From an uncultured Anaeroplasmataceae bacterium (GTDB taxonomy: Bacteria; Bacillota_I; Bacilli_A; Acholeplasmatales; Anaeroplasmataceae), in NCBI GenBank assembly GCA_948701955.1, contig CAPSSR010000002.1, forward strand, positions 1 to 55,890: a stretch of DNA of 55,890 nucleotides, given 5' to 3'. The notes beneath the pieces were generated by a model, which was not told the DNA's origin, made no database searches, and saw only the letters and a program-made list of their open reading frames with translations. Positions within the stretch are counted from its first letter, which is position 1. The number at the start of each line of letters is the position of its first letter. The translations under genes and the position numbers were made by a program. This document shows, piece by piece, positions 478-44,923 of this stretch.

Positions 478-1953
478 TCATACCCTGTTGTCAGGATTAT
501 TACTATCGTTATCACGAGTTTTTTGAGTTATATCACTAATTTCTGTTTCATCTTTCATTGGAGCGCCACTTTCTGATCCACCGTTGGTAGTAGTGTATGA
601 GGTCTTTAATACCTCCCACTTATCATAGATATCTTCCTTAAATATCTGTTCAGTAAATGAATTACCAAGCATCTTTGCAGTATTTACGCCTATAGCACTT
701 AAAAGTTCTTCTTTAATTGGTAATGAAGCCTGTGCTAATTTTAATCTCCTATCAACATAATCATCTACATCAAAAATTGTAGTTGGTAGAATACGATATA
801 CAAACTGATAGTCATTATAGATATGTCCTCGAAGTTTCATTTGTAAATCTACCCATGCTTCAATTTGACGATATATTCTATATATATCAGAAGAATCAAC
901 TTTCATAGAAAGTTTTAATTCGGAGCCACTAGATGCGGAAGATATAAGTGCTTTTGAAACTCCAGCTTCTCCATAGTAATTATCCACTGCCTGTTCAACT
1001 TTATTTTTGTCATCAGATATTGTTGACTTTGATTCTATAAGTTGTAAATCCATAGGAGATGGTATTACCCCGAATCTCTCAGGAAGAATCGCGCAAGCCA
1101 TTTCTACAAATTTACTTATCAATTCATCACCCATAGATATTTGATCATCGTCATTCGTTGGAATCTTAAAATATATCAGTTTGTAAGCATCTGCTTCTGA
1201 TTTTGCTTTTACCAAATCCTTGATATCATCTATATTTAACAGTTCGGAAATTAACGAAAAGAAGCAAGGATACAAATATGTAAAATCATCATTGTATTTA
1301 ATACAGAAAGAATTTTCATATGGTATCATTACTCGATTATCAAGAGATACTTCTTTTGACCGTTCTATAAGCATCTGTAATTCTTCTGGAAGAGTCTTAA
1401 AAACATTTGCATCTATCAATGAGCGATTTACAGAAAATTGATAAATTGATCCGTTGGTCAACTTTTCAATTTTACAAAAATCTGGCTCCAATAGAAAAAT
1501 GGAAGTATCTATATCATTTTCAGTGACAAAACCAAAACAAGCATCATCAATAAATAACCTTTTAAATATATCTGTAACACGATTATCAAGTTTGAATTTA
1601 TTCACCTGCGCCGTGTAATTGATATAGTTTTTCCTAAACGTTTTTGGATTTGTAGTAAACATTTTGTCTTGCTTAATTTCTGTGTCTATTGTCCAGTTAA
1701 GAATGGCACTATTTGCAAAATAGTCTATAAGTCTCTTATAATATCCGCTCTTAAGATACATATATCTTGATAAACGAATTATGTGATTTGGATATCGCTC
1801 TGGATATTGTGTCATACTAATAATTTGATTTCTTGTAAAACCAAAAATGCGGTTGTATTTGAAAGCACCTTTATATGCTAACTCTGATAACGCCAATCGT
1901 TTCAAACTTGCAAAGTTGAAAGTCGGTGATTTCCCATTTAGAAAATTTTCCAC
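478..1953 (-). CDS. probable portal protein
   Basis: 491 aa; immediately downstream of terminase large subunit on same strand; size and acidic C-terminus typical of portals; no motif proof. Confidence 0.5.
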   Translation of the reverse strand: MENFLNGKSPTFNFASLKRLALSELAYKGAFKYNRIFGFTRNQIISMTQYPERYPNHIIRLSRYMYLKSGYYKRLIDYFANSAILNWTIDTEIKQDKMFTTNPKTFRKNYINYTAQVNKFKLDNRVTDIFKRLFIDDACFGFVTENDIDTSIFLLEPDFCKIEKLTNGSIYQFSVNRSLIDANVFKTLPEELQMLIERSKEVSLDNRVMIPYENSFCIKYNDDFTYLYPCFFSLISELLNIDDIKDLVKAKSEADAYKLIYFKIPTNDDDQISMGDELISKFVEMACAILPERFGVIPSPMDLQLIESKSTISDDKNKVEQAVDNYYGEAGVSKALISSASSGSELKLSMKVDSSDIYRIYRQIEAWVDLQMKLRGHIYNDYQFVYRILPTTIFDVDDYVDRRLKLAQASLPIKEELLSAIGVNTAKMLGNSFTEQIFKEDIYDKWEVLKTSYTTTNGGSESGAPMKDETEISDITQKTRDNDSNNPDNRV

Positions 1954-2033
1954 GTTCTTTTTATCTTCTTGAAACTGTTCTTTTATTGCTCCATTGTTAT
2001 TTGTATTTTCTTTGATGTTTAATCACCACCTTT

Positions 2034-3809
2034 CTAATGAGAATATAATTTGGGTTTTCGTGCAAGAGCAGTGAGAGAGGAGACATTAGTTTTCGTCTGC
2101 TTTTTATATATTTTGTTTTTGTTCTCATTCTCCATTTCACAACAGATACTTAGTCCATACATAAGACTCGTTGCTCTATCTCTCTTTGTGGATTTTACTA
2201 TTCTTGTGTATGTCATTTTTTCTGCATTTGTAAAATCCTGTTTAATATTACTTAATTCACTTTGTAAAATATCATGCTGTATATATTGCTCATATTCATC
2301 CAATGTAAGTTGCCCTTGTTTATGTAATGTATCCACTTCTTCTGATTGCTTTAATAGCTCCAAAGTATGATTTTCAAAACATGCTTTCATGTATGGATAA
2401 TACAAATTTACAAAGTTGTTCATACCATGAATAGCACGAATAATAGGTAATGCACCTTCTATAGTCTTAATTCCTATTTCGTCATCGTCTTGTATTAAAG
2501 GAGGATATTCTGTTACTTTTCCAGTACGTTCATCCCTATATTCCCATGACTCATAGAACAAACTCGGTAAACCGGCACCTGCACCTTGAGCATCGACTAA
2601 TATTCGCTCTGTATTAGGAAATTTTAAATGTAATAGTTCTCTTAGCATATCTCTTTGTTTATTGAGTGGCATACCATTAACAACTTTAGTAAATACGATT
2701 TGCTTTAAATATGTTCCATCTGGTCGTGGCTTGAGCTTAATTACATGTGTACATGCGTTATCAGATCCTTTTGCATCAGAAACAGCAACGTCATGAGTAA
2801 TAATATAAATTGAATTAGACTTTTTAGGTTGTTCTAATTCTGGTCTTTCAAGCACACGACATTCATTTGTCAATTCGTAAGGGAAATAGCTTTCTCCGCT
2901 GGAACCAACAAATATTCCTTCATATTCATAAGCAAATTTGTCTTTAGTCATAGATGGCTTTGATAATTCTTGCTCTATATCGTCTTCGCCAAATAATCCA
3001 GCTTGAATACCTACTTGATAAGGAAAACACATAGCAATATAGTTTTTATTACCATCCACCATTTGTTCATAGTGATATTTAAATCTTTTATATAGTGAAC
3101 TCGTTTTTAGATAGGCAGAAGAAATAAAGATAACTTTGCCTTTTTCGTTTTGCTTCCACTTCAAAGCGTTAGGACGCTTTGTTTTTGTCATAGGAATTAA
3201 AATGGTTTCAATAATGTCATCTTTTACAAGCCGCGCTTCATCAATCAGGAGGTAATGGAACCTCCAGCTTCTCGCACTTTCACCACCACGATCCTGTGCC
3301 AAAGTTATTGCCCTAATCTCAGAACCACCTTTAAATTCCGCATAGCAATCATCAGCACCAGTTCTTATAGGAAAATTTATTTCTCTTGCAATAGCTTCAT
3401 TTTTAGAAAGCTCACCTTTTAATTTCTGAATGATTACGTTACGACTCTGCTGTGACATGCCAGATGCGATACCACACTTCAGCCCCGGATAGAGAATAGA
3501 AACACATACATAGAATAGACATACAATCCATGATTTGCCAATACCACGACAAGCAATTAGACAACTAAATTGACCTCTTCCCATAGCACGTAGTATTACT
3601 CTCTGAAATGGAAAAAGATCTACATGGAGTATGTCAATTACAAACTCATCAATATAATATCTGTAATATGAAAAAAAATCAGTCCATGCTTCATAGTCGA
3701 TAGAAGATTCATTAATTGGGTCATTGGAATATGTGGAGTCAAAATCTTCTGCGTGTTTTTTGTCGTATAATTGTTTTTCCTTTTCCTGCTGTTTTTCGTA
3801 TTTATCCAT
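2034..3809 (-). CDS. terL: terminase large subunit
   Basis: 591 aa; Walker A-like CLIACRGIGKSW, Walker B-like HYLLIDEARLV, C-terminal nuclease-like acidic segments (ITHDVAVSD). Confidence 0.8.
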   Translation of the reverse strand: MDKYEKQQEKEKQLYDKKHAEDFDSTYSNDPINESSIDYEAWTDFFSYYRYYIDEFVIDILHVDLFPFQRVILRAMGRGQFSCLIACRGIGKSWIVCLFYVCVSILYPGLKCGIASGMSQQSRNVIIQKLKGELSKNEAIAREINFPIRTGADDCYAEFKGGSEIRAITLAQDRGGESARSWRFHYLLIDEARLVKDDIIETILIPMTKTKRPNALKWKQNEKGKVIFISSAYLKTSSLYKRFKYHYEQMVDGNKNYIAMCFPYQVGIQAGLFGEDDIEQELSKPSMTKDKFAYEYEGIFVGSSGESYFPYELTNECRVLERPELEQPKKSNSIYIITHDVAVSDAKGSDNACTHVIKLKPRPDGTYLKQIVFTKVVNGMPLNKQRDMLRELLHLKFPNTERILVDAQGAGAGLPSLFYESWEYRDERTGKVTEYPPLIQDDDEIGIKTIEGALPIIRAIHGMNNFVNLYYPYMKACFENHTLELLKQSEEVDTLHKQGQLTLDEYEQYIQHDILQSELSNIKQDFTNAEKMTYTRIVKSTKRDRATSLMYGLSICCEMENENKNKIYKKQTKTNVSSLTALARKPKLYSH

Positions 3810-3819
3810 TTACACACCA

Positions 3820-4767
3820 TTACAATGATTTTGTGATAGTGCTTAAATAGTCTATCATTTCATCAATCGTATCTTTCTTTAATGGTTTGTGTTCTGGAAT
3901 CCAGTTATGAGCTTCTACCATAGCAGCAACTTTTGAAAAACTACTTATACCAACATCATTTACACTTCTGGTACTTTCGCTGAATTTTGCAGACTTTGAA
4001 AGAGTATCAAACGCTTCCCTTGCATTTTTATACCTTGCATCAGCACCATCAATCCCGTTTATCATTCCATCAAATGCTTTATCCATTTGAAGACTTGCTT
4101 TAGCGATTTTACGAGCATAATCACGGTGGTTTTCTGTGATTATCTTATAGTCTCGTTCAAGTCCGGTATAATAATTATTTAAGTAATCAATATCTTTTTG
4201 ACTATACTTACCCATCCATTTATCATCATAAATAAGTTCTTCTTGTTCAATGGTGTTATTTGTAACAGATACAGCTGTATTTTGCTTTTTATCTCTTATA
4301 TCAGAATATCTTTGTATTGTTTGCTCTTTCCTATTTTGTGTATTGGTATTCACAGTTTTATGAGAAAAACCATCTTTTTCAGAATCTACAAAACTTTTAT
4401 TTCTATTTTGTCTCAATGTATTGATATTCTTAAAATAGAAACCAATAATTTCATTTCCATATTTAGCGATTTCATCATCAGATAAATAGCCATGTTCCTT
4501 TTTGCATTGTAAAAATGCAGAATCTAATTCATCTGTATAATATGGCTTGTCCAATCTCTGACACATTGTTTTTAATTTATTTTCATTAACAGTGCCATCT
4601 TTATTTATAACTTCCTTTTTCACACATGAAATACATATTGGTACACACCCATCTAATGAAAATAAAGGACTAGATGATTTATAAAAACCAGTGGCAATAG
4701 ACTTATTATCGCCACAAATAGGACATTTTTTCTTTCTTATTTCTTTTTTTGTAGCTATGAATGCCAC
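3820..4767 (-). CDS. candidate terminase small subunit / zinc-ribbon DNA-binding protein
   Basis: 315 aa directly upstream of terL (10-bp gap); N-terminal CPICGD...CISC zinc ribbon; assignment by position only. Confidence 0.35.
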   Translation of the reverse strand: MAFIATKKEIRKKKCPICGDNKSIATGFYKSSSPLFSLDGCVPICISCVKKEVINKDGTVNENKLKTMCQRLDKPYYTDELDSAFLQCKKEHGYLSDDEIAKYGNEIIGFYFKNINTLRQNRNKSFVDSEKDGFSHKTVNTNTQNRKEQTIQRYSDIRDKKQNTAVSVTNNTIEQEELIYDDKWMGKYSQKDIDYLNNYYTGLERDYKIITENHRDYARKIAKASLQMDKAFDGMINGIDGADARYKNAREAFDTLSKSAKFSESTRSVNDVGISSFSKVAAMVEAHNWIPEHKPLKKDTIDEMIDYLSTITKSL

Positions 4768-17685: not shown

Positions 17686-17724
17686 TTATTCACCAACTTT
17701 CTTTAATATTTTCGGTTCCAATAA

Positions 17725-17805
17725 TGGATGTCTCTGGACTCGAACCAGAAATGCCGAAGCCACAGATTTACAGTCTGCTGCGATTCCAATTCCGCTCACA
17801 CATCC
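17725..17805 (-). tRNA. tRNA-Tyr (anticodon GTA), class II with long variable arm
   Basis: Acceptor GGATGTG/GACATCC (one mismatch), 3-bp D-stem, anticodon loop CTGTAAA, variable arm GGCTTCGGCATT, T-arm TCTGG-TTCGAGT-CCAGA. Confidence 0.75.
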
Positions 17806-18017
17806 ATTAAAATAGGAGAGTATTGATAACTCTCCTGAAATATTCTGTCTTTCCAGAATGTTAAACTGCATAGCAGTTATTCGCTAATTTATAAAAGCCA
17901 TCATTATCAAAAGTGGCTTTCAACCATAATCAATGTTGTTATTTCCAAACAAAAATCATCATTAACGCAGATGAGTACGAACCTCTTAGCTTATAACAAC
18001 TTACTTAATTATGACTT

Positions 18018-18592: not shown

Positions 18593-19627
18593 TTAGATGA
18601 ATGCCTCATCAGATTCATCATCTTCATCTTTTTTGATTATGTAATGATTCTTGGTTGTAGAAACATCATTATGCCCTAATAATTTTTGAGCAACCTCTGC
18701 TGATTTATGCTCATACACAACAATATTGGTCGCTCTGCTTTCACGGAATAGGTGAGGATGTACTCTGCGTCCTACAATTTTTGTAAACAATCCTTGGCAC
18801 CACCCGTTAAAAGTATCTTCTCCAACCTGGCGAGTAGTTCCATCTTTCTGCTTAATTACAAACATAAAAGGACAGTCATCATCACCACGAATTTCTAACC
18901 ATTTTTTCAGCCAACACATAGCATCTTCGCCAAATTTTAATTTTCTCTGTTTGCCAACAATAGAAGCACCTTTACACCGGATCGTATGAGTTTGATACGA
19001 TTTAGATACTGCTTCTTGTTCATTTCCATCTTCATCAATTATCTTGATTTTCTTTTCTTTTGGTTCATAGTCTACAACTTCTTTGAGAAGTTGTCTTGCT
19101 TCTGCACGTCTACAGCCAGTGGAATAAGAAAAGACTAAGTAAGCTAATTTTTGCCATTCCTCACGTTTTTCTAATTCTTCACAAAGCATTACATACTCAT
19201 CTGGTGTAAGAGGAACTTTCTCATGCACATATCCTGTCTTAACTACTTTTAATCCAACTGTAAAATTACGAAATGTGGGATATTCGTCTTCATACATCAT
19301 CATTATATAATTACAAAATGAACTGACGCTTGATTTTTTGAATTTAATAGCTGAATCAGATAATCCTCTATTTGTAATCCAGTTTAAATATCTTACATAT
19401 TCTTTCTTCTTTATATCAAGAAAACTTTTATTATTAAGATTCTGCTTAACCCAGTAGAAAAATATCCGCAATCCTGATTTGTAAGCTATTTTTGTTTTTA
19501 TGGATAAATCGGTTTGGTTATCCAAATATTCCTGAACCATGTTTCTATTGAATTCAAGAACTTCAGACCACATTTTATCGGTTATATCATCACTACGTTT
19601 TGCATTCTTGCCATCCACATTTATCAC
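18593..19627 (-). CDS. int: tyrosine recombinase / phage integrase
   Basis: 344 aa; catalytic signature GCRRAEARQL ... HPHLFRESRATNIV ... LLGHNDVSTTKNHYI (R-HxxR-Y); SAM-like N-terminal domain. Confidence 0.85.
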   Translation of the reverse strand: MINVDGKNAKRSDDITDKMWSEVLEFNRNMVQEYLDNQTDLSIKTKIAYKSGLRIFFYWVKQNLNNKSFLDIKKKEYVRYLNWITNRGLSDSAIKFKKSSVSSFCNYIMMMYEDEYPTFRNFTVGLKVVKTGYVHEKVPLTPDEYVMLCEELEKREEWQKLAYLVFSYSTGCRRAEARQLLKEVVDYEPKEKKIKIIDEDGNEQEAVSKSYQTHTIRCKGASIVGKQRKLKFGEDAMCWLKKWLEIRGDDDCPFMFVIKQKDGTTRQVGEDTFNGWCQGLFTKIVGRRVHPHLFRESRATNIVVYEHKSAEVAQKLLGHNDVSTTKNHYIIKKDEDDESDEAFI

Positions 19628-21364: not shown

Positions 21365-21652
21365 TTATGCGAAAATAGTCTTCAGAGACTTTACGATTTT
21401 GACAGATGCCTCCTTATGTTCTGGCTTCACATATTTCTCTCCCTTGTTAGGCCCCATCATAATAGTTCCAGTCTTTTCTTTTACGACTTTCTCTTTTACT
21501 TTACAGATTCCAGGAACTGTAACTTCATCACCTGAAGTGACAACGTCCTTAACAACTGCTTCAAGAGCTGCCAACACAGATGCAACCTGTTTCTGATTTA
21601 CTGCTTCGACTGATTTATTTGAAATTTCTTTTAAAAGTTCTACTTTTGTCAT
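21365..21652 (-). CDS. HU/IHF-family DNA-binding protein
   Basis: 95 aa; MTKVELLKEISNKS...VLAALEAVVKDVV...KTGTIMMGPNKGEKYVKPEHKEASVK follows the HU fold. Confidence 0.8.
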   Translation of the reverse strand: MTKVELLKEISNKSVEAVNQKQVASVLAALEAVVKDVVTSGDEVTVPGICKVKEKVVKEKTGTIMMGPNKGEKYVKPEHKEASVKIVKSLKTIFA

Positions 21653-22146: not shown

Positions 22147-23361
22147 CTATTGTAATTTCACATTATAACAACATTGAACACCTTGTTCATCACATACTAA
22201 AACAGTTTGCGATGCTTTTCCTGACAACCTTTTTGATATTGTATAATCATCTCCAGAAGGAGCAAAACTACCAGACTGATATATCTGTATCCCATTAAAC
22301 TCTTTCATGGCAGGCGTATGCTTGTGTCCGCATACAATATATTCTGGACAGAAGCCAAGCATTGTTACCAGACCACCAATTCCAGTTTTAGAAATAATGT
22401 CAACATCTCCATGTATAAGTAGATAGTTCTTATTTCTGATATGGGCCTCCCCAATAGTTGAATCAAACTTTCTATGTGTCATGTCGTGAAAATTATCTAT
22501 GTGTTTAAGGAGGTTGCATACAGTCCACCCAATCAAATCATCCAACCGCTCATCTTTAATTGCATTATCTTTATTCGGATTCAATCTTGAGTGATTCCCA
22601 CTAATATTATAAAAATACACGTCATCAAAATATTTTGTCAGTTCATAACAAAAAGAAGATATATATTCTATAGCGATTTTCACCTGTTCCACGACATTTT
22701 CTTTATTTGATATCTGAATTGTTTGATGGATAAGACCGCTTATCTGATCGCCAATGCTACATACATGAATCTTTGAAGAGTTATGTCTTTTTGCGATTTC
22801 AATGACATCATTTAAATATTTGTTTAATTCTTGTTTTGCAATATTACTATTATATTCTCCCCAAAATGATTTGAATGTCTGTCCGATATGTAGATCTGCA
22901 ATACAGCAAAGTAAATCAGTGGTTCCATTTATTTGTGGAACATCATGGATTTTAAAATTCGTATTACCGACTGTAGGGATTATCTCTTCAAAAATTTCCA
23001 TGACCTCATCAAAGCGTGTATTTTCATAATTTTGCTTATTCCAGGCTCTTCTTTGGTCACGAAATTTGATTGTATTGCGCTGAAGTTCACGGTTCATTAT
23101 ATCAAGTTTCTTTTGGTGTTCTGTTGATTCCATTTTTGAAAAACAATTATTATAAAATTTTTTAGCTGCTTGATATTTTTTTCTCCATGCCGATTCAGTA
23201 CGATATAATGTTTCATCGTCTCCTAAAAGTTCATGATTTACAATATTATTTACAGAATCCCAGCTCTCTAATTCTCCAGAATCTATGAGTTGCCCAATTT
23301 TCCATAAATATTGTTCTTCTGTTTCTGTAGATATTTTTTTGGTATCTTGAATAGTAGTCAC
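22147..23361 (-). CDS. calcineurin-like metallophosphoesterase (SbcD/Mre11-like or phosphatase)
   Basis: 404 aa; ordered motifs DLHIGQ (DxH), GDQISG (GD), GNHS (GNH), LIHGDVD, GHKHTP (GHxH); helical N-terminal extension. Confidence 0.65.
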   Translation of the reverse strand: MTTIQDTKKISTETEEQYLWKIGQLIDSGELESWDSVNNIVNHELLGDDETLYRTESAWRKKYQAAKKFYNNCFSKMESTEHQKKLDIMNRELQRNTIKFRDQRRAWNKQNYENTRFDEVMEIFEEIIPTVGNTNFKIHDVPQINGTTDLLCCIADLHIGQTFKSFWGEYNSNIAKQELNKYLNDVIEIAKRHNSSKIHVCSIGDQISGLIHQTIQISNKENVVEQVKIAIEYISSFCYELTKYFDDVYFYNISGNHSRLNPNKDNAIKDERLDDLIGWTVCNLLKHIDNFHDMTHRKFDSTIGEAHIRNKNYLLIHGDVDIISKTGIGGLVTMLGFCPEYIVCGHKHTPAMKEFNGIQIYQSGSFAPSGDDYTISKRLSGKASQTVLVCDEQGVQCCYNVKLQ

Positions 23362-23616: not shown

Positions 23617-24747
23617 TTAATAAAAATTATTTTTCAGAATATATTCAATATTATCAAAATCCCAATACCAAATTTCTAATAGTTTAATATTATGATCTTT
23701 TGCATATTGTCTCTTTCTTCTATCATGCTCTTGTTGTTTGTATAACTTCATTTTTGTTTGATGCCTTGCAGTTCCATCGTGAAATTCTCCTTGATATTCT
23801 ATAAGATAGTTGAATTTTGGTATATAAAAGTCAAAAGATAACTTTCCTCCGTTTATTCCAATTAATCCATCAAATTCTTTTTGCCATACATAATTAATAT
23901 TTTTGTTCTTTAATATTTCTTCAATTCTTTTTTCGCCTTTAGATACATTACACTTTGGACATCCACTTTTTTCACCTGTAATTAAATTGCTAGGTTTTGC
24001 TTTCCAGATATATCCGCATTGCAAACATTGAAATTTTATTTTATGATTTACAGTTGAAAATGTTTCTAATGGTTTAATAGATTTATGATTTTTTGATAGT
24101 TCATCTACAAATTCTTCATGTGTTCTTCTTACTTTATTTATACACCTATGGCAATAACCCTTTGAATTAACAAAGGCTGGGATTGTAGTATTCCAACTAT
24201 AGTTACATTTTTTGCATTTGCAAGTAATTTTACTGTCAAGCCCCACATATTCCGCTTTGTTGATTTCTACAATAACATTTGTATTTTTGTTATTTAGCTC
24301 TTCTAAAACTTCATCTAAAGATTTAATACGAGCTTTCTTTTTGCAGCGAGGACAATAATTTCTTTCCACTGTATTTTTGGCGATTTCTTCCCATTCATAT
24401 TCACAAACATTACATCTGCATTTTACTTTATTTAGTATACCATGATACTCGCTTAAAACAGTAAAATTTCTTTTAGACTTTATTTTTTCAAGAAAAGTCT
24501 CATTATTAAGAATTCTTCCTGAACAATAAGGACATGGAATATAAGAATTATTTTTATAGTTTCTTGCAAGTGTATCTGGAGTGATTGAAAAAGTGTTATT
24601 ACAATTTTTGCATTTAAATGTCACATCCGTTTTTGCGTTTTTATACTTATTAAGTAATTCAAGTTGTGGAAATTTGTTATGTATTTCTATTGTATATTCT
24701 TCATTTGTTTTCTTTTTTGGCATTTTATAACAACTCCTTCGTAACAA
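23617..24747 (-). CDS. 4x zinc-ribbon repeat protein with C-terminal DUF559/Vsr-like endonuclease domain
   Basis: 376 aa; four C-x2-C-x-(Y/F)-x-W ... C-x2-C repeats; C-terminal GEKRIEEIL...FDFYIP...LIEYQGEFH resembles PD-(D/E)xK DUF559. Confidence 0.5.
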   Translation of the reverse strand: MLRRSCYKMPKKKTNEEYTIEIHNKFPQLELLNKYKNAKTDVTFKCKNCNNTFSITPDTLARNYKNNSYIPCPYCSGRILNNETFLEKIKSKRNFTVLSEYHGILNKVKCRCNVCEYEWEEIAKNTVERNYCPRCKKKARIKSLDEVLEELNNKNTNVIVEINKAEYVGLDSKITCKCKKCNYSWNTTIPAFVNSKGYCHRCINKVRRTHEEFVDELSKNHKSIKPLETFSTVNHKIKFQCLQCGYIWKAKPSNLITGEKSGCPKCNVSKGEKRIEEILKNKNINYVWQKEFDGLIGINGGKLSFDFYIPKFNYLIEYQGEFHDGTARHQTKMKLYKQQEHDRRKRQYAKDHNIKLLEIWYWDFDNIEYILKNNFY

Positions 24748-24858: not shown

Positions 24859-25052
24859 GTATCAATTCTTATAATTGGATTGCTATTTTCAATTAAATAA
24901 TTCGCTAATCGTTTACTTTTACAAACAAACAATGAAATTTTCCTTTCATGAATATATTTTTATATTTTCTAACATTTATATTTTTAAAATTTGTGGGCTG
25001 TTGACGAAGAGCCATACTACGGAGGTTTATTTTACCAAAACAAACAAAGGAA

Positions 25053-25128
25053 TCGGGGATCAGGGACTCGAACCCTGGGCAAACATAGTTTATAAGACTA
25101 CTGCTCTAACCAACTGAGCTAATCCCCA
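25053..25128 (-). tRNA. tRNA-Ile (anticodon TAT), tentative identity
   Basis: Acceptor (T)GGGGAT/ATCCCCG, D-arm GCTC-AGTTGGTTA-GAGC, anticodon stem GTAGT/ACTAT with loop CTTATAA, T-arm CAGGG-TTCGAGT-CCCTG; variable region about 7 nt. Confidence 0.65.
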
Positions 25129-25687
25129 AAAGAAATAAGTGGAGATGCCACCAGAACGGTAGCGCCACCACCTATATAGGAGAAAAATATATGAAGAAAG
25201 AGTGCAATTATCAGATGCTTGAAACAGGACTGAAATGCTGATTTGTGATTTCAACCAATTTGTCATCAGCATTACACTGATGTAATTAACCATATCAATC
25301 ATGATTAATAAAAATCTTTAAAATATTTGCTGTTAATTTTTTCGTATCTTCACAAAAAATTATGTTCAAAAAGATAAGATTGACGCAACGGTTGTCATGA
25401 TTTTAAGTTTTCATTATAGCAAATTACTAGAATTGCAAAATAACATAATTGGCAAATTGCAACGTGCTTAACGAAGATTATATGATATCATATAGGTATA
25501 CTTGATGCTTGGAAATGTTTCCTAACAAATCTGTTATGCACAATGTGTCTTTCGTTTTCATAATTCGATATTTTTTGGACAATATCATACTCGCAGCATT
25601 ATACTTTATCTGCGACTAAAGCGGTTGACCACCACAAAACGCTTATTTCAACCCTGTTGCAAGCATCTGATAGTGGAAGAGGAGTGG

Positions 25688-26395: not shown

Positions 26396-27124
26396 TCAAG
26401 GTATTTCAGAAACATGTGCTTCAAACATTTTTGCGTTTCTTATGTGTTTCATGCGCTCTTTGGTATTATTCCTGTTAATGATATTAGCGCAAGACTTACA
26501 ATATTTACGGTTTTTGACAGTATCTCTAATTACTCTTCCACAATTTTTACACTGTTTAAATCCTTTCTTAAAATTTCCTATGTACTGATTCCCAAGATTA
26601 CTAAATTCTTTTATTCTATAAACAATATCACCAGAATTATTCATATCAATTCGGATATTTAGATTATCTACTTTCTTTCCAAACGTAATATATCCATTAA
26701 TATATAGCTCATGTAATAACGCATTTCTTTTATCAGATGAAAGAGTAACATTCGCAAGCTTAAATACTTCTGAGATATCTTTTGATTCCTTCTTGTTAAT
26801 CCATCCATCACTATTCATATATCTTGCAATTGCGAAAAGTGTAAACATTAATTTCTTTTGCTTATCATTTGGCAATGAGGCAATAAAATTAATTTCTGAT
26901 TCATATATTGGAATATATTCCCTTTCTTTAAAAGTACGTTCTATATTTCCGTTAAATAACCCATCGCATACAGTGATGATTTTGTTATGATACCTATACT
27001 CTTGATAGTTTTCTAAATCAAATTCCAATATTTTTCTCTTTATTATGTTAGATAACTGTTCAATACTCTTATCATCAGAGTAGTAATATTTGGCGATTAG
27101 GGTAATAAAGTACCCCATAGACAA
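26396..27124 (-). CDS. hypothetical protein with C-terminal zinc ribbon
   Basis: 242 aa; CKNCGRV...CKSCANI at C-terminus. Confidence 0.45.
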   Translation of the reverse strand: MSMGYFITLIAKYYYSDDKSIEQLSNIIKRKILEFDLENYQEYRYHNKIITVCDGLFNGNIERTFKEREYIPIYESEINFIASLPNDKQKKLMFTLFAIARYMNSDGWINKKESKDISEVFKLANVTLSSDKRNALLHELYINGYITFGKKVDNLNIRIDMNNSGDIVYRIKEFSNLGNQYIGNFKKGFKQCKNCGRVIRDTVKNRKYCKSCANIINRNNTKERMKHIRNAKMFEAHVSEIP

Positions 27125-27173: not shown

Positions 27174-29684
27174 TCATTCAGTATATACAGTGTTTAGTTC
27201 CTCCAATCTTTTTATAAGTTCTTCTCCAATACAATCCCAACAGAACTGCTTGTTCCCCTTATATCCGTAGGTAATGTCTAAAATAATATTCAAACGTTCC
27301 TCATCGTTGGGACATATATCTTTTGCTTCCTGATTAAATTTTGCATATAGGAAACGTCTATTTTTATTAGAATCGCCTTTGTCATGATGCTTTTGTTTTT
27401 TGTATTCTCTTACACATTCACAATAATATTGTTCTAATTCCTTAAGGGCCAATCTATGTTCTTCTGTACAACGTTTTTTTGTTTTTAATACATTGTAATC
27501 AAATGAGGAATTACTGTGTAACCGAGACTTATATCCATCCAACTGGCTTTCCACATATCTACATATTTTATTCATAGAGCAGTTTCCCATGCCAACAGGC
27601 AATTTAAATTCATACCAAAACAAAAATTTTTTCTGATCGTCAGATAAATTGCTAGTGTTTGCATATAAATCCTGAAGAGAACAATTATACAATGCATTGC
27701 ATTTGTTATTACTTTCTTTTATATATTTTTTATAATCACGTTTAGCTTCTTCGTAAATGTAAATCATAAAATATGGTTTTCGATATGCACATATAGACTG
27801 CAAATATCTGTCATCACCACAAGCCCTCATATTATACCATCTGCTGGGCATAGGGTCAGAGATTATTCCTTTAATCCGATCAATCTCATTTTGCTGGTAG
27901 AGCTGTCCACATCCTATCCTATACTCCAATTCCTTATATGCATCAGAATTTTTCTCAAAATGTGATTGTACCTCCATCATTGATGTGACATAATTAGTAA
28001 TAATACCAACTTTATTGCCCATTCCATTTTTATTAGTCTTTTTTACTTCATTTTCTGTAATGATAATTTTGGATGTATTACGCTGAACACATTCAATAGC
28101 GGGAAGTTTCCTATATCTCCTCTTAAGCACGGCGTTATTAGTGGAAAAGAGTATATCACTATCCCAATCACACCCATTTTCTGCCATACAGAATGAGTCC
28201 CAGGCATTAATAATCATAATAGTATCCATATATTGATACCATCGCTTGCACTCATTAGAATTATTTACTCTACACATACGAATATTATTATGGCTTGTCA
28301 TAGGACTTCTAAAAACAACAACGTCCTCTTCATCTTTATTAATCCAAAACTTAGAATAACATTCATCAGCCTCAAGTAATCCTGTAACTTCTAATCCACA
28401 AATAGATTGCATAAGTGCGAATGGATCTCCACTAGCAATTTGATAATTACCTTGTACAAGCAATTTCCCAATCTTGGCATCATTCATTTTCTTTTTAATA
28501 AACCTGTGAACTGAATCAATCACATATGGGTCACCAAGCATATATTCATTTGTATATAATGCCCGCTGCCATGAATTGACCTCTGTATTTTCGGTAATTC
28601 CTAAAAACTTAATAGTAGAAGAGTAGTCTCCACACATAGCATCTTTCAAATAGTTTATAGTTGGTGTACAGAGTTCTTCTATATCATCATTGGTAAATTC
28701 ATATGATTGCAAATATTGATAATTTAGTTCCCGTTGTTCCTCCAACACATGCGGAGAAATTTTTGTGACAGAAAATTCATATCCACATTCTTTATAGGCA
28801 TTCTCATAACTTTCAATATTGTCATATGCCATCCATAATTTGAGAGATGATTCAGTCAAGATTATTTCACATTTACGAATGTCTTGTACATTCCCCCATA
28901 TATCTTCTATAAAATAGTTGCCATTATTAAATTCTTCAACGAATTCTACTATTGGAAATGGATATAACATTCCTTTTAGCCAGGCATTCCTTAAACAGAC
29001 TCCACTTGGAATATAATCTAATCCTAGAGATTGGGCTACTCGTTCCATATAGCCTATAGTACATAGGTTAAAACCATCAGAAACAGTATTTTCTAATTGC
29101 TTATGCAATATTGTTTCCATAACAGGCTCATCAGAATCTTTTCCGTCATCCAAAGATATTACATCTGCAAAGTATTGAGTAACACAGTCTTTAACAACCA
29201 AAATCCCAATTGGGTTACATATTGGTTGAGAGGATGAGCATGTCAATGCTTTATATGCCTCATATTTTGCAGGTACAAGTGGTATATTTTTATTTCTTTT
29301 ACATTCACAAAGTTCATTTAGCTTATCTATATATTTTGAATTGCAAAATAGAAGAGTGTTATTTTTCAAACCGCCAGTAGTCCCAACAAATCTTCGATAA
29401 TTTATGCCATTTACTGTCACGCCTTTATTACAGGTAGCTCTACCAAAATCTGACTTTTTATTTATAACGATTTGTATAAAAATTTTAGAAAAATCAATTT
29501 CTTCAATGCTCTTTTGTAAAACCCTATTTGCCATAATACGGAATTCTTGTGCTTCAAATAGTGCCACAAGTTCCTGAAATTTGAATGCTTCCTTTTTGGT
29601 TATTTTCAGATCCCAATTATAATATTTGAGTTTGTTTGTTCCTATTTTGAAAATCTCATATTGAGGTACGCTAATCCCAGCCAT
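27174..29684 (-). CDS. large hypothetical protein; candidate nucleotidyl-transferase (YonO-like single-subunit RNA polymerase?)
   Basis: 836 aa; VVFRSPMTSHNNIRMC followed about 45 aa later by AENGCDWDSDILFS, reminiscent of the beta-prime R-x-P-x-x-H ... NADFDGD catalytic segment. Confidence 0.5.
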   Translation of the reverse strand: MAGISVPQYEIFKIGTNKLKYYNWDLKITKKEAFKFQELVALFEAQEFRIMANRVLQKSIEEIDFSKIFIQIVINKKSDFGRATCNKGVTVNGINYRRFVGTTGGLKNNTLLFCNSKYIDKLNELCECKRNKNIPLVPAKYEAYKALTCSSSQPICNPIGILVVKDCVTQYFADVISLDDGKDSDEPVMETILHKQLENTVSDGFNLCTIGYMERVAQSLGLDYIPSGVCLRNAWLKGMLYPFPIVEFVEEFNNGNYFIEDIWGNVQDIRKCEIILTESSLKLWMAYDNIESYENAYKECGYEFSVTKISPHVLEEQRELNYQYLQSYEFTNDDIEELCTPTINYLKDAMCGDYSSTIKFLGITENTEVNSWQRALYTNEYMLGDPYVIDSVHRFIKKKMNDAKIGKLLVQGNYQIASGDPFALMQSICGLEVTGLLEADECYSKFWINKDEEDVVVFRSPMTSHNNIRMCRVNNSNECKRWYQYMDTIMIINAWDSFCMAENGCDWDSDILFSTNNAVLKRRYRKLPAIECVQRNTSKIIITENEVKKTNKNGMGNKVGIITNYVTSMMEVQSHFEKNSDAYKELEYRIGCGQLYQQNEIDRIKGIISDPMPSRWYNMRACGDDRYLQSICAYRKPYFMIYIYEEAKRDYKKYIKESNNKCNALYNCSLQDLYANTSNLSDDQKKFLFWYEFKLPVGMGNCSMNKICRYVESQLDGYKSRLHSNSSFDYNVLKTKKRCTEEHRLALKELEQYYCECVREYKKQKHHDKGDSNKNRRFLYAKFNQEAKDICPNDEERLNIILDITYGYKGNKQFCWDCIGEELIKRLEELNTVYTE

Positions 29685-29851
29685 TTATTCTCCCTTTGTT
29701 TTAACAAAAAATATTTGTTCGTTTGAAATTCTAACACATATCATATTTTCTTAATTAACCACTCATAGCCCATGTAATTAACATAAATTACTTGTGGGAG
29801 ATTATATATATGTGATACCATGTTCCACAAATACTTTCTTGATTCTTTTTA

Positions 29852-37060: not shown

Positions 37061-38109
37061 GAAAGTTATCTCCTTTGCATCTTTGGATATATTATTGCTC
37101 TGATTATTGTATCTGTGTTCAGCTATACGAAATCAATCTATTCTTTCTCTATCTAGCAGAAGAGCAGATAAGAAAAAACGAAACATAAATGATAGGCTTC
37201 TCTGCAGTATTTTTTCTTATAGATGTATATGGTATGCCAAATCATAAGACTACGTAATGATTTTTTGCCCAAATTCGCTTATAGAAGAAGCATAGGTATA
37301 TTTTATAAGATATGATACTATTTTACGAAAATGGGCCTCAAATCATTTGTGTACGTTATAATGCCAGCAAATTGCTTTCTGCTTTATGTTCAATCTGTAT
37401 TTGGTACTTATTCATTAAAAAAATCTCCGTATTATTTTTTGCATTAGAGCCATAAAATATTATTCTCTTTTTTGTCAGGATATTTAATGAGTTCGGTGAT
37501 GGATGGTATTTGTCCTATTTTTGGATTACGAAAGATATTGATTCTACTGGATGAACTGCATTTTTGCATATATGATTCGTTAGCTTCTTCTAATGAATAT
37601 ACTTAGCAAATATGAAATTCTGAGAAGGGTTCGAGAATATGCTGATTTTATAAGGGATTTTAATATTTTTAGAGGTAATTTTTTCGATTTTGAATGCTGG
37701 AATAATTGTCTGAAAATTTATTTGTGGTTGATTTCGATGGATTTTAGAGGATTGGCTTCGAAGTGCTAACCGAACTGTTTTTTGAATTGTGTAGAAGTTT
37801 GATGCAATTTGGGGATGATAGGTGGAGTCAAAATTTTAAGCTGATGTGAGAATGGAACTGATAAGCGCTTTTGAGGCTTTGACAATCCATTTTAAAATGT
37901 AAATATACCCCCCATATGTCAATATTTTGAGGTATGAGCACCCATAAACAAAACCGCATATTTACTTGTTTTCAAGTTACAAAAATGTTGTATTCATAAC
38001 TTTATATATAGGTCTGATATGTCAACAAATAATCAATTTTGTAATCAGCTATAAGTGGTCATCTATCCATCGCACTTGATTAAAATATATCAATAAAAAA
38101 TTTAAATAT

Positions 38110-38176
38110 ATAAACCTATCGTGCTGGTATGTTAATGAATATAAACTTATTAACATACTAACATAGTAGGTTTATA
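38110..38176. repeat. nested inverted repeats (cruciform-capable palindrome)
   Basis: Outer ATAAACCTAT / TAGGTTTAT (38110-38119 / 38167-38175); inner GTATGTTAAT / ATTAACATAC (38127-38136 / 38149-38158). Confidence 0.6.
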
Positions 38177-38711
38177 GGTGGTTCGGCAACTGTATTAGTC
38201 GGCTAATACGGTTTTGATAAAACAACAAATATACTATTTCCAAAACAACATATCTACTAAAAACCTATTAAAATCTATTGATAATCATCTTAAAAAACAG
38301 GCCTACATTAAACTATGCAACAAATATACAAAATAGTAACATGATAAACACTCTAATAAACACAATAGCACATCAACCATCGCTCCATCATATCATACCC
38401 TACATGTCATCTTTACATCAATAGCACATGCACACAATAACCATGCGCACATGTGCTATACCAGTGCTATATCATTTATTTGCCCTATATACCGCATTTA
38501 TCCCCTAAACCCAACAACTATACCGTCACTACATTTCAGCCCCTATTTGCCCTAAATAGGCCTATACAGTGCCATAATAATCGCTGACTCTAATCAGTCA
38601 CTACTCCATCATATGAACCAATTTCCATCAACCTTCCATCATGAATCCCTTACTATCCAGATTATCCAGATCTGCTTCAATCAGTCCCTTGATATAAGCA
38701 GCGGCGTTATA

Positions 38712-38954
38712 TTATTCAAACACTTTTTTAGTGTCCCTTGTTATAACCTGTATATCACAATCTAGTAAATCCATCATTTTCTTGAAGTCTGAAAAAGAAT
38801 AGTTCCCACGGCTGATTTTGTTTCTTAAAGATTGCGGCAATATATCCATTTTTGCGGCCATTTCAGCAATGTTTGTATGTCTTTCTAATAGTAATTGATT
38901 TATCACTTTCTTTTCGTCCATATCATTTACCCTGATCCTTTGGTTGAATATCAA
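38712..38954 (-). CDS. XRE-family HTH transcriptional regulator
   Basis: 80 aa; HTNIAEMAAKMDILPQSLRNKIS helix-turn-helix. Confidence 0.6.
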   Translation of the reverse strand: MIFNQRIRVNDMDEKKVINQLLLERHTNIAEMAAKMDILPQSLRNKISRGNYSFSDFKKMMDLLDCDIQVITRDTKKVFE

Positions 38955-39213
38955 TAATCAAATCGCAATCCATCGCATTACATAATTCTAGCAATATCTT
39001 TAAACTAGGGTTTTCTGTACGATTGTTTAACAAATTACTGATAGTTGCTTTTGTCCATCCTGTAGCATTGCATAAATCTTTTTGTTTTACATCTAAGTCA
39101 AGCATTAAATGTTTAATCATTAGAGTGACATCTGAAATATTCCCATTGTATTTTACCATTTCTGACCTCCCATAATATACTATATCATATCTTGATAAAT
39201 ATTGTAAATACAA
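38923..39213 (-). CDS. XRE-family HTH transcriptional regulator
   Basis: 96 aa; KQKDLCNATGWTKATISNLLNN helix-turn-helix; overlaps downstream HTH gene by 32 bp. Confidence 0.6.
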   Translation of the reverse strand: MYLQYLSRYDIVYYGRSEMVKYNGNISDVTLMIKHLMLDLDVKQKDLCNATGWTKATISNLLNNRTENPSLKILLELCNAMDCDLIIDIQPKDQGK

Positions 39214-39376
39214 TACTTATTATCTGTTTTTCTATATCATATCATGAAATAACAAAACATTTTAACAGATAAGTATTGACATAGCAATAATAGTATTGTA
39301 ATATAGACTTACCGAAAGGAAAAACAAAAACAGAACATTTGTTCTGAAATAAGAAAACGAAAGGTAGGCATATAAT

Positions 39377-39691
39377 ATGAAAGAATACAGAAAAATAACA
39401 AGAATTGATAAAACAGATAGCTATTCCCCAATAGACATGTACTACACTGCTGAGTATACCGAATACAGAGAAGATGGAATCATAAAATGCAAAGGCACTG
39501 AGGATTTTTCTGGCGAAAGAAAAAATACTTTGCATAGTTGGGATATATGTGTCCCAACTAATAAAACAAATAAAGGTGGACATACAATATGGGATAAAGT
39601 CGATAATATAACTACCACTGATGCAAAAAACGCTAAAAAGATAGCAACTTTTAAGTATGGTAACAAAGTCCAGCTAAGAAAAATAAGATAA
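39377..39691 (+). CDS. hypothetical protein
   Basis: 104-aa ORF divergent from HTH pair. Confidence 0.4.
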   Translation: MKEYRKITRIDKTDSYSPIDMYYTAEYTEYREDGIIKCKGTEDFSGERKNTLHSWDICVPTNKTNKGGHTIWDKVDNITTTDAKNAKKIATFKYGNKVQLRKIR

Positions 39692-39888
39692 TAAATCCCC
39701 TGAAGAGTCTTTGAGAATTAAGACGAAACTACCCACACAAAGGGTAGTCGGGATAGTAACACAAGTAACAATCAATATCCCTAACCGTACCTTGATAATT
39801 GAATAGGCTTTACACCTTCCAGACAATCCGTTATAATAAGATTGTAACAGTATATACTACCATGACAATCAAAAAGGCGGTGAAAGGA

Positions 39889-40068
39889 TGGTACAAGAAA
39901 TGTCTGATAAAGAATTGATTACGGTAACTATTGACAGATACACAGATTTACAAAGGATCAAGAAAGCAAATGGCAACAATGAAAATGCAGAACTTGACTA
40001 TCAAATTAAAGTAGTGACTGCAAAGTTATCTTCTTTAGGCGTAAATGTTGAAGATATAACGCTTTAAT
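39889..40068 (+). CDS. small hypothetical protein (59 aa)
   Basis: ATG after RBS aaaggatgg; followed by strong terminator. Confidence 0.3.
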
Positions 40069-40096
40069 CACAACTGAATAGCAAACAATAAACCAA

Positions 40097-40145
40097 AAGG
40101 TGTAAAGTCTATTGAGTTATCAAGGCTTTACACCTTTTTAATTTA
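40097..40145 (+). terminator. rho-independent terminator
   Basis: 11-bp stem AAGGTGTAAAG / CTTTACACCTT followed by TTTTAATTT. Confidence 0.6.
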
Positions 40146-40154
40146 GGAATAATC

Positions 40155-40163
40155 TGGTATAAT
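40155..40163 (+). promoter_or_regulatory. extended -10 promoter (TGgTATAAT), copy 1
   Basis: tggtataat 36 bp upstream of the 40199 ATG; same leader ATTGGgaaggtgagaa-ATGGCGATA as copy 2. Confidence 0.45.
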
Positions 40164-44921: not shown

Positions 44922-44923
44922 TA

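What the first reader, a model, noticed from the sequence alone, without database searches (positions are those of the whole stretch)
27174..29684. 836-aa protein with an RxPxxxH ... DxDxD segment resembling the beta-prime catalytic core of multisubunit RNA polymerases (YonO-like?)
The largest protein of the early block carries FRSPMTSHNN followed about 45 residues later by GCDWDSDILF. This has the same order and similar spacing as the universally conserved NRAPTLHRLGIQAF ... NADFDGD double-psi beta-barrel catalytic segment. Its size is in the same range as I recall for the SPbeta single-subunit RNAP YonO (no figure checked). If correct, the element encodes its own transcription enzyme, which would explain the recurring non-canonical promoter-like elements. 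The fourth residue is S rather than the near-invariant G, so this is uncertain. A family-B-polymerase-like DTDS reading is the alternative.
Basis: inference. Interest (0 to 1): 0.65.

Follow-up and report, generated by a model that had tools for sequence, protein, structure and literature searches.

The report
YonO-type single-chain phage RNA polymerase
The 836-residue gene encodes a phage RNA polymerase of the known YonO family, a miniature one-chain relative of cellular RNA polymerases; it is a new member rather than a new kind, but it comes with a conserved neighbouring zinc-ribbon protein that may be its missing start-site factor.

Summary

Corrections: the His of 'RxPxxxH' is not conserved (38/111). 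Ser at position 509 is a tolerated family variant (G77/S12/Y7/F7/L3). I found no recurring non-canonical promoter motif; the repeated elements found are canonical sigma-A type.

Context: a distant SPbeta-like phage with yonJ, yonN, yomM, yonG and yonF homologs co-oriented downstream. It most likely transcribes late genes (inferred).

Extra: the ORF directly downstream (26396-27124) is a conserved partner carrying the zinc ribbon that YonO has fused to its own C-terminus. In relatives, group-I-like introns split the gene exactly at the catalytic codons.

Verdict: new member of a known kind.

The parts
27174..29684 (-). Gene for the 836-aa YonO-family single-subunit two-barrel RNA polymerase
29690..29696 (-). 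Ribosome-binding site AAGGGAG, 5 nt upstream of the ATG
   Evidence: Read directly from the sequence.
28971..29078 (-). Beta-like barrel active-site block, aa 203-238: D203-G204 ... R232 ... K237-G238
   Evidence: D203, G204, K237 and G238 are invariant and R232 is at least 90% conserved. The block aligns to QDE-1 MNDGVG...QGRFGSAKG (D709, R738, K743) and to RDR2 SDGIGKIS...IRYGGYKG. Spacing of 29 and 5 residues is identical to QDE-1.
28284..28313 (-). FRSPMTSHNN, aa 458-467: invariant R459 and P461 of the beta-prime-like barrel
   Evidence: R and P are 111/111; H465 is only 38/111. Aligns with YonO ILRSPHLF and QDE-1 ARSPAHF, R962/P964.
28146..28175 (-). GCDWDSDILF, aa 504-513: metal-binding Asp triad D506/D508/D510 (codons 28155-28169)
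   Evidence: All three Asp are 111/111; position 509 is G77/S12/Y7/F7/L3. Aligns with YonO FDNDGD, whose 3D>3N mutant is inactive, and with QDE-1 GGDYDGD. It is an intron insertion hot-spot in relatives.
27867..28007 (-). Post-triad invariant residues G560, N564, R589, D602 and K605, on helices 559-573 and 581-605 (a probable bridge-helix-like region; this assignment is inferred)
   Evidence: Invariant columns. A long helix at 581-605 in the model. The second intron hot-spot in relatives falls at D602.
26396..27124 (-). Conserved partner gene (242 aa; probably 240 aa from the ATG at 27118): helical N-domain, winged-helix-like middle, C-terminal Cys4 zinc ribbon (C192, C195, C209, C212 = 26489-26551) and a basic helix
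   Evidence: Lies directly downstream of the polymerase gene in 8/8 phage records that have it, in L008 and in 3/3 distant metagenomic members. The ribbon resembles YonO aa 794-838. The four Cys are at least 90% conserved. AF2 pLDDT 84.5. Only weak winged-helix fold hits.
22147..23361 (-). yonJ-like exonuclease, co-oriented downstream (candidate target gene; inferred)
   Evidence: blastp vs SPbeta YonJ E 3e-11. PHROG exonuclease E 4e-51.
21365..21652 (-). HU-family DNA-binding protein, yonN-like, co-oriented downstream
   Evidence: PF00216 E 7e-11. blastp vs YonN E 4e-6. An HU gene follows the polymerase in SPbeta, Perkons, BUCT082, PMBT24 and TR-TP1.
478..4767 (-). yonG-like gene (3820-4767), large terminase yonF-like (2034-3809) and portal (478-1953): the start of the packaging/structural late module, co-oriented with the polymerase gene
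   Evidence: blastp vs YonG E 5e-8 and vs YonF E 1.5e-46. PHROG terminase and portal hits.

Best explanation
The gene encodes a catalytically competent single-chain RNA polymerase of the YonO family. This family belongs to the 'two-barrel' (double-psi beta-barrel) superfamily, along with cellular multisubunit RNA polymerases and eukaryotic RNAi polymerases. One polypeptide supplies both barrels. The beta-like barrel contributes D203, R232 and K237. The beta-prime-like barrel contributes R459, P461 and the Mg-binding triad D506/D508/D510. Shown here: homology, residue conservation and fold. Inferred by analogy with SPbeta YonO, which has been shown to be a strict DNA-dependent RNA polymerase that transcribes the SPbeta late operon: the host polymerase makes this enzyme early from the leftward block that starts at the immunity region near 39.8 kb; the enzyme then transcribes the co-oriented downstream genes (yonJ-, yonN-, yonG-like genes, terminase, portal and tail genes) independently of the host polymerase. 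More speculative: the conserved 242-aa zinc-ribbon protein encoded directly downstream works with it, perhaps in promoter recognition or initiation.
Against: Identity to YonO is only about 24%, and pairwise BLAST covers just the N-terminal 480 residues; the rest aligns only through profiles. Template preference (DNA vs RNA) cannot be read from sequence, and the closest solved structures are RNA-dependent or dual-activity enzymes. No promoter for the enzyme was identified. Extended -10 host-type sites also occur downstream of the gene, so a clean split between host-transcribed and phage-transcribed genes is not visible. Pfam, NCBIfam and PHROGs give no functional label for the query, although YonO itself is equally unlabelled.
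Confidence: 0.85

Rival explanations
1. It is an RNA-dependent RNA polymerase, as several GenBank relatives are labelled. It would copy phage or host RNA, for example to make double-stranded or antisense RNA, rather than transcribe DNA.
For: The closest solved structures are the eukaryotic RNAi polymerases QDE-1 and RDR2. Family members hit Pfam PF05183 'RdRP'. PMBT24, TR-TP1 and Perkons homologs are annotated 'RNA-dependent RNA polymerase'. QDE-1 has both DNA- and RNA-templated activity (abstract of PMC9508822).
Against: YonO, the only biochemically tested member of this phage family, strongly prefers DNA templates, more strictly than E. coli RNAP, and is needed for late-gene mRNA. The gene sits in a dsDNA tailed phage at the head of an SPbeta-like late module. 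The GenBank labels appear to derive from fold or profile similarity, not from experiment (the TR-TP1 record's other annotation notes cite structure alignments; the PMBT24 paper does not discuss the gene).
Confidence: 0.07
2. It is a two-barrel polymerase used mainly for DNA replication, for example as a primase or R-loop-forming enzyme at a phage origin, rather than as the late-gene transcriptase.
For: Its immediate neighbours are DNA-metabolism genes: dCMP deaminase, a ParB-like gene, an exonuclease and HU. Two-barrel cores have been recruited for DNA synthesis in archaeal PolD (abstract of PMC7708050).
Against: The same neighbourhood (HU, exonuclease) surrounds yonO in SPbeta, where the demonstrated phenotype is loss of late transcription. 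No evidence for primase activity exists in this family.
Confidence: 0.05
3. It is a family-B-type DNA polymerase whose DWDSD is a variant of the DTDS motif.
For: Only the superficial resemblance of D-x-D-S to DTDS.
Confidence: 0.005
4. It is a decayed, catalytically inactive relic of a polymerase.
For: Gly-to-Ser substitution in DxDGD. No curated family hit.
Against: All eight superfamily-invariant residues are intact. Ser, Tyr, Phe and Leu occur at that position in many otherwise conserved members. There are hundreds of close homologs at 80-89% identity with an identical length of 836 aa. The model is very confident.
Confidence: 0.02

Closest known systems
YonO of Bacillus subtilis prophage SPbeta (single-subunit DNA-dependent RNA polymerase; Forrest et al. 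2017, PMC5467207)
   Same: Direct sequence homolog (E 2e-20). Almost the same length (836 vs 839 aa). Same RSP...DxDxD arrangement with similar spacing (47 vs about 43 residues). Same genomic setting: upstream of and co-oriented with HU (yonN), exonuclease (yonJ), yonG and terminase (yonF) homologs in a large temperate-type siphophage that carries a yomM-like integrase.
   Different: Only about 24% identity. The triad reads DWDSD rather than DNDGD. It lacks YonO's C-terminal Cys4 zinc ribbon, which here sits on a separate 242-aa protein encoded directly downstream. It lacks about 50 N-terminal residues of YonO. The host is a gut Clostridia/Lachnospiraceae-type bacterium (names given to close homologs), not Bacillus.
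Clostridium phage c-st CST179/178/177 and Enterocloster phages PMBT24 / CB457P1 / CB473P3
   Same: Same clade: 34-49% identity over the full length. Same polymerase-then-partner gene pair. The c-st record already notes 'YonO-homolog (N-ter only)' and '(C-ter only)'.
   Different: In c-st and most of the CB phages the polymerase gene is interrupted by 320-465-nt group-I-like inserts at the Asp-triad codons, and in CB473P3 also at D602. The window's gene is uninterrupted. PMBT24's is also uninterrupted, but is labelled 'RNA-dependent RNA polymerase'.
Eukaryotic RNAi polymerases QDE-1 and RDR2 (Pfam PF05183)
   Different: 12-15% identity. The query itself does not reach the Pfam model. Those enzymes are about 1000-1400 aa, QDE-1 is dimeric, and they are RNA-templated or dual. 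This protein lives in a dsDNA phage, and its tested relative is strictly DNA-templated.
Other phage single-subunit two-barrel RNAPs: Thermus phage P23-45 gp64 / P74-26 gp62, crAss-like phi14:2 gp66, P23-45 gp96
   Different: No detectable sequence similarity. gp66 and gp96 are virion-packaged or tape-measure-fused and act pre-early. Nothing suggests virion packaging here.
Multisubunit RNA polymerase beta-prime/beta
   Same: The R-x-P and D-x-D-x-D residues correspond to beta-prime NRAPTLH and NADFDGD. D203/R232/K237 correspond to Rpb2 D837/K979/K987 (the Arg sits where Rpb2 has K979).
   Different: One chain instead of two or more. Foldseek gives only E about 1e-2 and TM about 0.1 to beta-prime. 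The flanking N, A, F and G of NADFDGD and the His of NRAPTLH are not conserved. Most msRNAP domains are absent.

Membership tests
Two-barrel (DPBB) RNA polymerase superfamily | Eight invariant active-site residues (QDE-1 D709, R738, K743, R962, P964, D1007, D1009, D1011; PMC2919709) | tested here: met
   The query has D203, R232, K237, R459, P461, D506, D508 and D510. Seven are invariant and R232 is at least 90% conserved in 95-111 homologs. Residue-level profile alignment to QDE-1.
Two-barrel (DPBB) RNA polymerase superfamily | Overall fold containing the two barrels | tested here: met
YonO-like single-subunit phage RNAP | Significant sequence homology to YonO, with the Asp triad aligned to the experimentally essential DNDGD | tested here: met
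   BLASTP E 2e-20. Triad columns shared in alignments that include YonO. YonO 3D>3N is inactive.
YonO-like single-subunit phage RNAP | Both barrels in one chain of about 800-950 aa | tested here: met
   836 aa. D203...K237 and R459...D510 lie in the same ORF.
YonO-like single-subunit phage RNAP | SPbeta-type genomic context (HU, yonJ, yonG, yonF downstream, same strand) | tested here: met
   blastp of window ORFs against SPbeta proteins. HU Pfam hit.
YonO-like single-subunit phage RNAP | C-terminal Cys4 zinc ribbon on the polymerase chain (present in YonO and Perkons) | tested here: not met
   The query ends ...FCWDCIGEELIKRLEELNTVYTE with no CxxC pair. The ribbon is on the adjacent 242-aa ORF. 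This is a clade difference, not a universal family trait.
YonO-like single-subunit phage RNAP | DNA-templated, NTP-dependent RNA synthesis; requirement for late-gene expression | not testable with these tools
   Known only for YonO. Inferred here.
Multisubunit RNAP beta-prime subunit | NADFDGD and NRAPTLH motifs in full, with a separate beta subunit supplying the second barrel | tested here: not met
   The motifs read CDWDSD and FRSPMTSH. Gly, His and the flanking residues vary in the family. Both barrels are in one chain. Beta-prime chains reach only Foldseek E about 1e-2 and TM <= 0.10.
Eukaryotic-type RdRP (Pfam PF05183) | Match to the Pfam model above its gathering score | tested here: not met
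   The query has no Pfam hit even at E <= 10. However, family members TR-TP1 (E 4.5e-19), P0194 and P0229 do match, so the family as a whole borders on PF05183.
Eukaryotic-type RdRP (Pfam PF05183) | RNA-templated RNA synthesis | not testable with these tools
YonO disfavours RNA templates.
Family B DNA polymerase | PolB fold and motifs (exonuclease domain, palm with DTDS) | tested here: not met
   No PolB hit in any profile or fold search.
Virion-packaged phage RNAP (crAss gp66 / P23-45 gp96 type) | Part of a giant virion or tape-measure protein | tested here: not met

The most novel reading that the evidence does not exclude
In this clade the YonO-type polymerase is not self-sufficient. It would work as a two-protein holoenzyme with the conserved downstream protein of about 240 aa (helical domain, winged-helix-like domain, Cys4 zinc ribbon, basic helix), and that partner would supply promoter recognition or initiation. 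The evidence is a Rosetta-stone pattern: YonO and Perkons carry the same zinc ribbon fused to the polymerase C-terminus and have no partner gene. Every ribbon-less polymerase examined has the partner gene directly downstream: 8/8 deposited phage records that carry it, L008, BUCT082, and 3/3 metagenomic members down to 28% polymerase identity. If true, this would answer the question left open in 2017 of whether YonO-type enzymes need a factor to find promoters. It would also describe a minimal polymerase-plus-factor system built on a winged helix and a zinc ribbon, a domain pairing that recalls archaeal and eukaryotic initiation factors (an analogy from general knowledge, not tested here).
Probability: 0.25. 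Interest if true: 0.7.

Novelty: new member of a known kind. Interest (0 to 1): 0.4.

Why it matters
YonO-type enzymes are the smallest known relatives of cellular RNA polymerases. They have been discussed as models for the single-chain ancestor of those polymerases, yet only YonO itself has been studied, no member has a solved structure, and its promoter and any cofactors are unknown. This window shows three things. First, the family is large and common in gut Clostridia phages (1393 clusters at 50% identity) while remaining unlabelled in Pfam, NCBIfam and PHROGs and mislabelled 'RNA-dependent' in GenBank. Second, a very confident model is available for it. Third, it points to a specific, testable candidate cofactor. 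For annotating this element, the practical result is that the phage most likely runs its late genes on its own rifampicin-insensitive polymerase.

Tried and rejected
1. Pfam, NCBIfam and single-sequence PDB searches of the query gave nothing. PHROGs gave only 'unknown function' families. YonO itself is equally blank, so these misses carry no weight.
2. Megablast of 20 kb of the window against deposited phages found no match.
3. Rfam, at gathering and at E <= 0.1, found no intron family in the inserts that split the c-st and CB473P3 homologs. The group I assignment therefore rests only on R-like and S-like core elements and the boundary nucleotides.
4. Promoter search for the enzyme. Exact 9-11-mers shared by at least 3 minus-strand intergenic regions gave only a start-codon-overlapping AAAATCATGAC. 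The consensus sigma-70 scan was not enriched over shuffles (79 found vs 94.7 expected). TGNTATAAT is about 2-fold enriched (16 vs 8.2) but occurs on both sides of the gene. No degenerate-motif (MEME-type) search was run.
5. The Foldseek search of the partner model gave no significant hit (best E 0.05). 'Winged helix' is only a tendency among weak hits.
6. The local Pfam copy did not reproduce YonJ_N or YonG_N hits for window ORFs. Synteny was established by direct blastp instead.
7. No sigma factor was found among the roughly 50 window ORFs scanned, so that route to phage-specific transcription was not supported within the window.
8. Model coordinates are not exposed, so I could not measure distances between active-site residues.
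Full report
OBSERVATION. The ORF is real. It runs from 27174 to 29684 on the minus strand, starts with ATG and encodes 836 aa. An AAGGGAG ribosome-binding site lies 5 nt upstream of the ATG. FRSPMTSHNN is aa 458-467 and GCDWDSDILF is aa 504-513. Each motif pattern occurs once. In 20,000 shuffles of the protein, the ordered pair 30-60 residues apart arises in 0.005%. The bare motifs would be weak evidence by themselves; what follows is what gives them weight.

WHAT IT IS: SEQUENCE EVIDENCE. Curated libraries are silent. Pfam and NCBIfam give nothing, PHROGs give only 'unknown function' families, and a single-sequence PDB search gives nothing. This carries no weight, because YonO itself has no Pfam or NCBIfam hit either.

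tblastn against deposited phages finds 41 records:
- Enterocloster phages: 48-49% identity over the full length.
- Clostridium phage c-st: 34%.
- Bacillus phage BUCT082: 27%, full length.
- SPbeta-type phages, where the hit falls on yonO: E down to 1e-18.

Pairwise BLASTP against YonO (839 aa) gives E 2e-20 over query residues 26-483 and places query VVVFRSP against YonO IDILRSP. YonO continues with FDNDGD about 43 residues after RSP. That is the triad whose Asp-to-Asn mutant is catalytically dead.

An exhaustive search of 1.8 billion cluster representatives finds 1393 family members at the 50% identity level, 391 of them with E <= 1e-30. I aligned 105 full-length representatives, five phage proteins including YonO, and the query. 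R459, P461, D506, D508 and D510 are identical in 111/111. The tool alignments A1 and A2 give the same invariant set, plus K140, Y144, D203, G204, K237, G238, K282, Y322, G560, N564, D602 and K605. H465 is present in only 38/111. Position 509 is G77/S12/Y7/F7/L3.

MEMBERSHIP IN THE TWO-BARREL SUPERFAMILY. Ruprich-Robert and Thuriaux (PMC2919709) define the superfamily by eight invariant residues. In QDE-1 they are D709, R738, K743, R962, P964, D1007, D1009 and D1011. These correspond to Rpb2 D837/K979/K987 and Rpb1 R446/P448/D479/D481/D483.

The query has D203, R232, K237, R459, P461, D506, D508 and D510. Its spacings are 29, 5, 2 and 45 residues, against 29, 5, 2 and 43 in QDE-1. A family profile searched against all PDB sequences returns only RDR2 and QDE-1 chains (E 5e-6 to 5e-3). 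It aligns sDGqG...iiRnaFlKG with QDE-1 MNDGVG...QGRFGSAKG, and fRsPmt...ngaDfDgD with ARSPAHF...GGDYDGD. Three family members (TR-TP1, P0194, P0229) match Pfam PF05183 outright.

STRUCTURE. AlphaFold2 on a 95-sequence alignment gives mean pLDDT 93.8 and pTM 0.89.
- Foldseek vs PDB: ranks 1-21 are RDR2 and QDE-1 (E 5e-17 to 1.5e-13, TM up to 0.57). Ranks 22-24 are the Thermus phage P32 gp64 and P74 gp62 polymerases (E about 5e-6). Bacterial beta-prime chains follow at E about 1e-2.

No family-B polymerase appears in either list. No solved structure of a YonO-family protein turned up, even with a profile that contained YonO.

GENOMIC SETTING. The window is part of a tailed phage or prophage:
- portal: 478-1953
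- large terminase: 2034-3809
- tail-related proteins: 9679-14558
- integrase: 18593-19627
- HU: 21365-21652
- exonuclease: 22147-23361
- free-standing HNH endonuclease: 23617-24747
- dCMP deaminase, ParB-like protein, anti-repressors: 30-36 kb
- four tRNA genes

Direct blastp of window ORFs against SPbeta proteins finds homologs of yonO, yonJ, yonN, yomM (E 2e-58), yonG and yonF (E 1.5e-46), plus a weak yomR hit. All are on the polymerase's strand and downstream of it. A close relative (85% identical polymerase, 262-kb contig) has YonJ_N and YonG_N genes downstream. Close homologs are named as coming from Clostridium sp. and Acetatifactor sp. assemblies. The element is therefore a distant SPbeta-type phage of gut Clostridia.

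HOW IT MOST LIKELY WORKS.
- Shown here: homology, invariant catalytic residues and fold.
- Established for YonO: strict DNA-templated RNA synthesis, dependence on the Asp triad, and a requirement for transcription of 37 late genes from a start site upstream of yonK. The promoter and any cofactor requirement were left unresolved.
- Inferred for this protein: the host polymerase makes it as part of the leftward block that begins at the divergent promoter and operator region near 39.8 kb. It then transcribes the co-oriented late module.

I could not find its promoter. No non-canonical k-mer recurs in minus-strand intergenic regions. The repeated promoter-like elements in the window are canonical CTTGAAA-N17-TGATATAAT sites on the plus-strand block. 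Extended -10 sites occur on both sides of the gene.

RIVALS. An RNA-dependent role is suggested by the nearest structures and by GenBank labels. It is disfavoured by YonO's biochemistry and by the dsDNA late-operon context (about 0.07). A replication or primase role is possible but has no evidence behind it (about 0.05). The PolB reading and the dead-relic reading are rejected.

A CONSERVED PARTNER. The 242-aa ORF directly downstream (26396-27124) is 34% identical (E 2e-37) to the ORF at the same position in PMBT24. Its C-terminal CKNCG...KYCKSC resembles YonO's own C-terminal CCICG...KYCQSC (E 1e-4).

The pattern is consistent across the family. YonO and Perkons carry the ribbon on the polymerase and have no partner gene. 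The window, L008, PMBT24, CB473P3, c-st and BUCT082 have ribbon-less polymerases and a mutually homologous partner that carries the ribbon. The c-st record already labels CST177 'YonO-homolog (C-ter only)'.

The partner lies directly after the polymerase gene in all eight deposited phages that have it. It also does so in three arbitrarily chosen metagenomic members at 38%, 30% and 28% polymerase identity; these match the partner profile at E 1.5e-54 to 1.2e-22 and all have the ribbon. The four Cys are at least 90% conserved.

The partner model (pLDDT 84.5) has an N-terminal helical bundle, a helix-helix-helix-strand-strand unit, the ribbon and a long basic helix. Foldseek gives no significant match, but the weak hits are mostly winged-helix DNA-binding domains. 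A role as a polymerase-associated factor, possibly in initiation, is a reasonable hypothesis but is not shown.

INTRONS AT THE ACTIVE SITE IN RELATIVES. In CB473P3 the gene is split after ...GCDFD by a 433-nt insert, resuming with GDAIYSTNN. It is split again at D602 by a 465-nt insert. In c-st a 320-nt insert splits ...GMDMD from DAVISTNN. Each insert starts after an exon-terminal T with an immediate stop codon. Each contains AACGACTA followed by GATATAGTC, which resemble the group I R and S core elements (from general knowledge). The two inserts whose boundaries are resolvable end in G. Rfam does not detect them.

Among the 150 listed representatives, at least 14 end inside the triad, some after the first Asp and some after the second. 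At least 9 more break at QQxxID. Mobile introns favour highly constrained catalytic codons, so this is independent, if indirect, support that these are the functional core. The window's own gene is uninterrupted.

NOVELTY AND SCORE. YonO-like proteins in Firmicutes phages have been known since 2003-2010, and YonO was characterised in 2017. The c-st homolog was noted in its 2005-era annotation. This is a new member of a known kind. Some points add moderate interest. The clade is large, unlabelled in curated libraries and mislabelled 'RNA-dependent' in GenBank. It is undiscussed in the two papers checked, the PMBT24 genome paper and the SPbeta-relatives paper. The split-off zinc-ribbon partner gives a concrete handle on the open question of how YonO-type enzymes find promoters. 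Interest 0.4.

Noticed in passing
window 26396-27124 (-): A 242-aa ORF directly after the polymerase gene is conserved at that position across the family, down to 28% polymerase identity. It carries a Cys4 zinc ribbon that SPbeta YonO has fused to its own C-terminus. The model suggests a winged-helix-like middle domain. It is a candidate polymerase cofactor.
   Followed up: yes
L007 2286-2718 and 3001-3465; L004 4151-4470 (relatives, not the window): Group-I-intron-like inserts (R-like AACGACTA, S-like GATATAGTC; exon ends in T; the two inserts with resolvable boundaries end in G) split the homologous polymerase genes exactly within the DxDxD codons and at the D602 motif. At least 23 of the 150 listed family representatives are truncated at these two spots. 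Rfam does not detect the inserts.
   Followed up: partly
window 42700-55200 (+): A repeated canonical promoter, CTTGAAA-N17-TGATATAATGAAT (-35 plus extended -10), precedes several plus-strand genes (for example at 45802, 46496, 47387, 50897 and 55158). These are probably host-polymerase early promoters, not non-canonical elements.
   Followed up: partly
window 46503-48821 (+): Three consecutive genes (46503-47330, 47422-47967, 47964-48821) begin with a paralogous zinc-ribbon module of about 24 aa (KCPECGREI...C..CG), seen as 65-74% identical 72-nt DNA repeats. Function unknown (PHROGs 6586, 4852 and 9700).
   Followed up: no
window 38712-40423: A probable immunity or lysis-lysogeny switch. Small XRE-type HTH genes lie on both strands (38712-38954 and 38923-39213 minus; 39888-40067 and 40199-40423 plus). 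The strongest divergent sigma-70-like promoters are at 39809-39868. An operator-like repeat, AGGCTTTACACCTT (39805, 40123, inverted at 40095), overlaps the -35 of the strongest promoter.
   Followed up: partly
window 37061-38711: About 1.65 kb with no ORF longer than 58 aa on either strand, between a DUF3825 gene and the HTH genes. It contains a 28-nt inverted repeat (38109-38176) and short direct repeats. It could be an origin, a non-coding RNA or decayed genes. SPbeta also has a 1.7-kb gap with an unannotated RNA near its YonO start site.
   Followed up: no
window 5418-5492, 8040-8114, 17724-17806, 25052-25129 (all -): Four phage-borne tRNA genes: Asn-GTT, Lys-TTT, Tyr-GTA and Ile-TAT. tRNA-Ile lies 560 nt downstream of the 205-aa ORF that follows the partner gene (about 1.3 kb downstream of the partner gene itself) and is followed by a strong terminator-like hairpin (24858-24830).
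   Followed up: no
window 23617-24747 (-): A free-standing HNH homing-endonuclease gene (PHROG 559, E 7e-88) sits between the polymerase/partner pair and the yonJ-like exonuclease. Related contigs have a GIY-YIG/NUMOD gene in the same neighbourhood (L008), so this region is a hot-spot for mobile nucleases.
   Followed up: no
window 18593-19627 (-) and 11415-14558 (-): A yomM-like tyrosine integrase (34% identical to SPbeta YomM, E 2e-58) and a 1047-aa tail-fibre-like protein lie between the yonJ/HU genes and the yonG/terminase genes. So the gene order is rearranged relative to SPbeta.
   Followed up: partly
GenBank records OQ326496.2, PQ571309.1, MT325768.1 (relatives): Homologs of this polymerase are annotated 'RNA-dependent RNA polymerase', although the only tested family member, YonO, is strictly DNA-dependent. 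The label is likely an annotation artefact from fold or profile similarity to QDE-1/RDR.
   Followed up: partly
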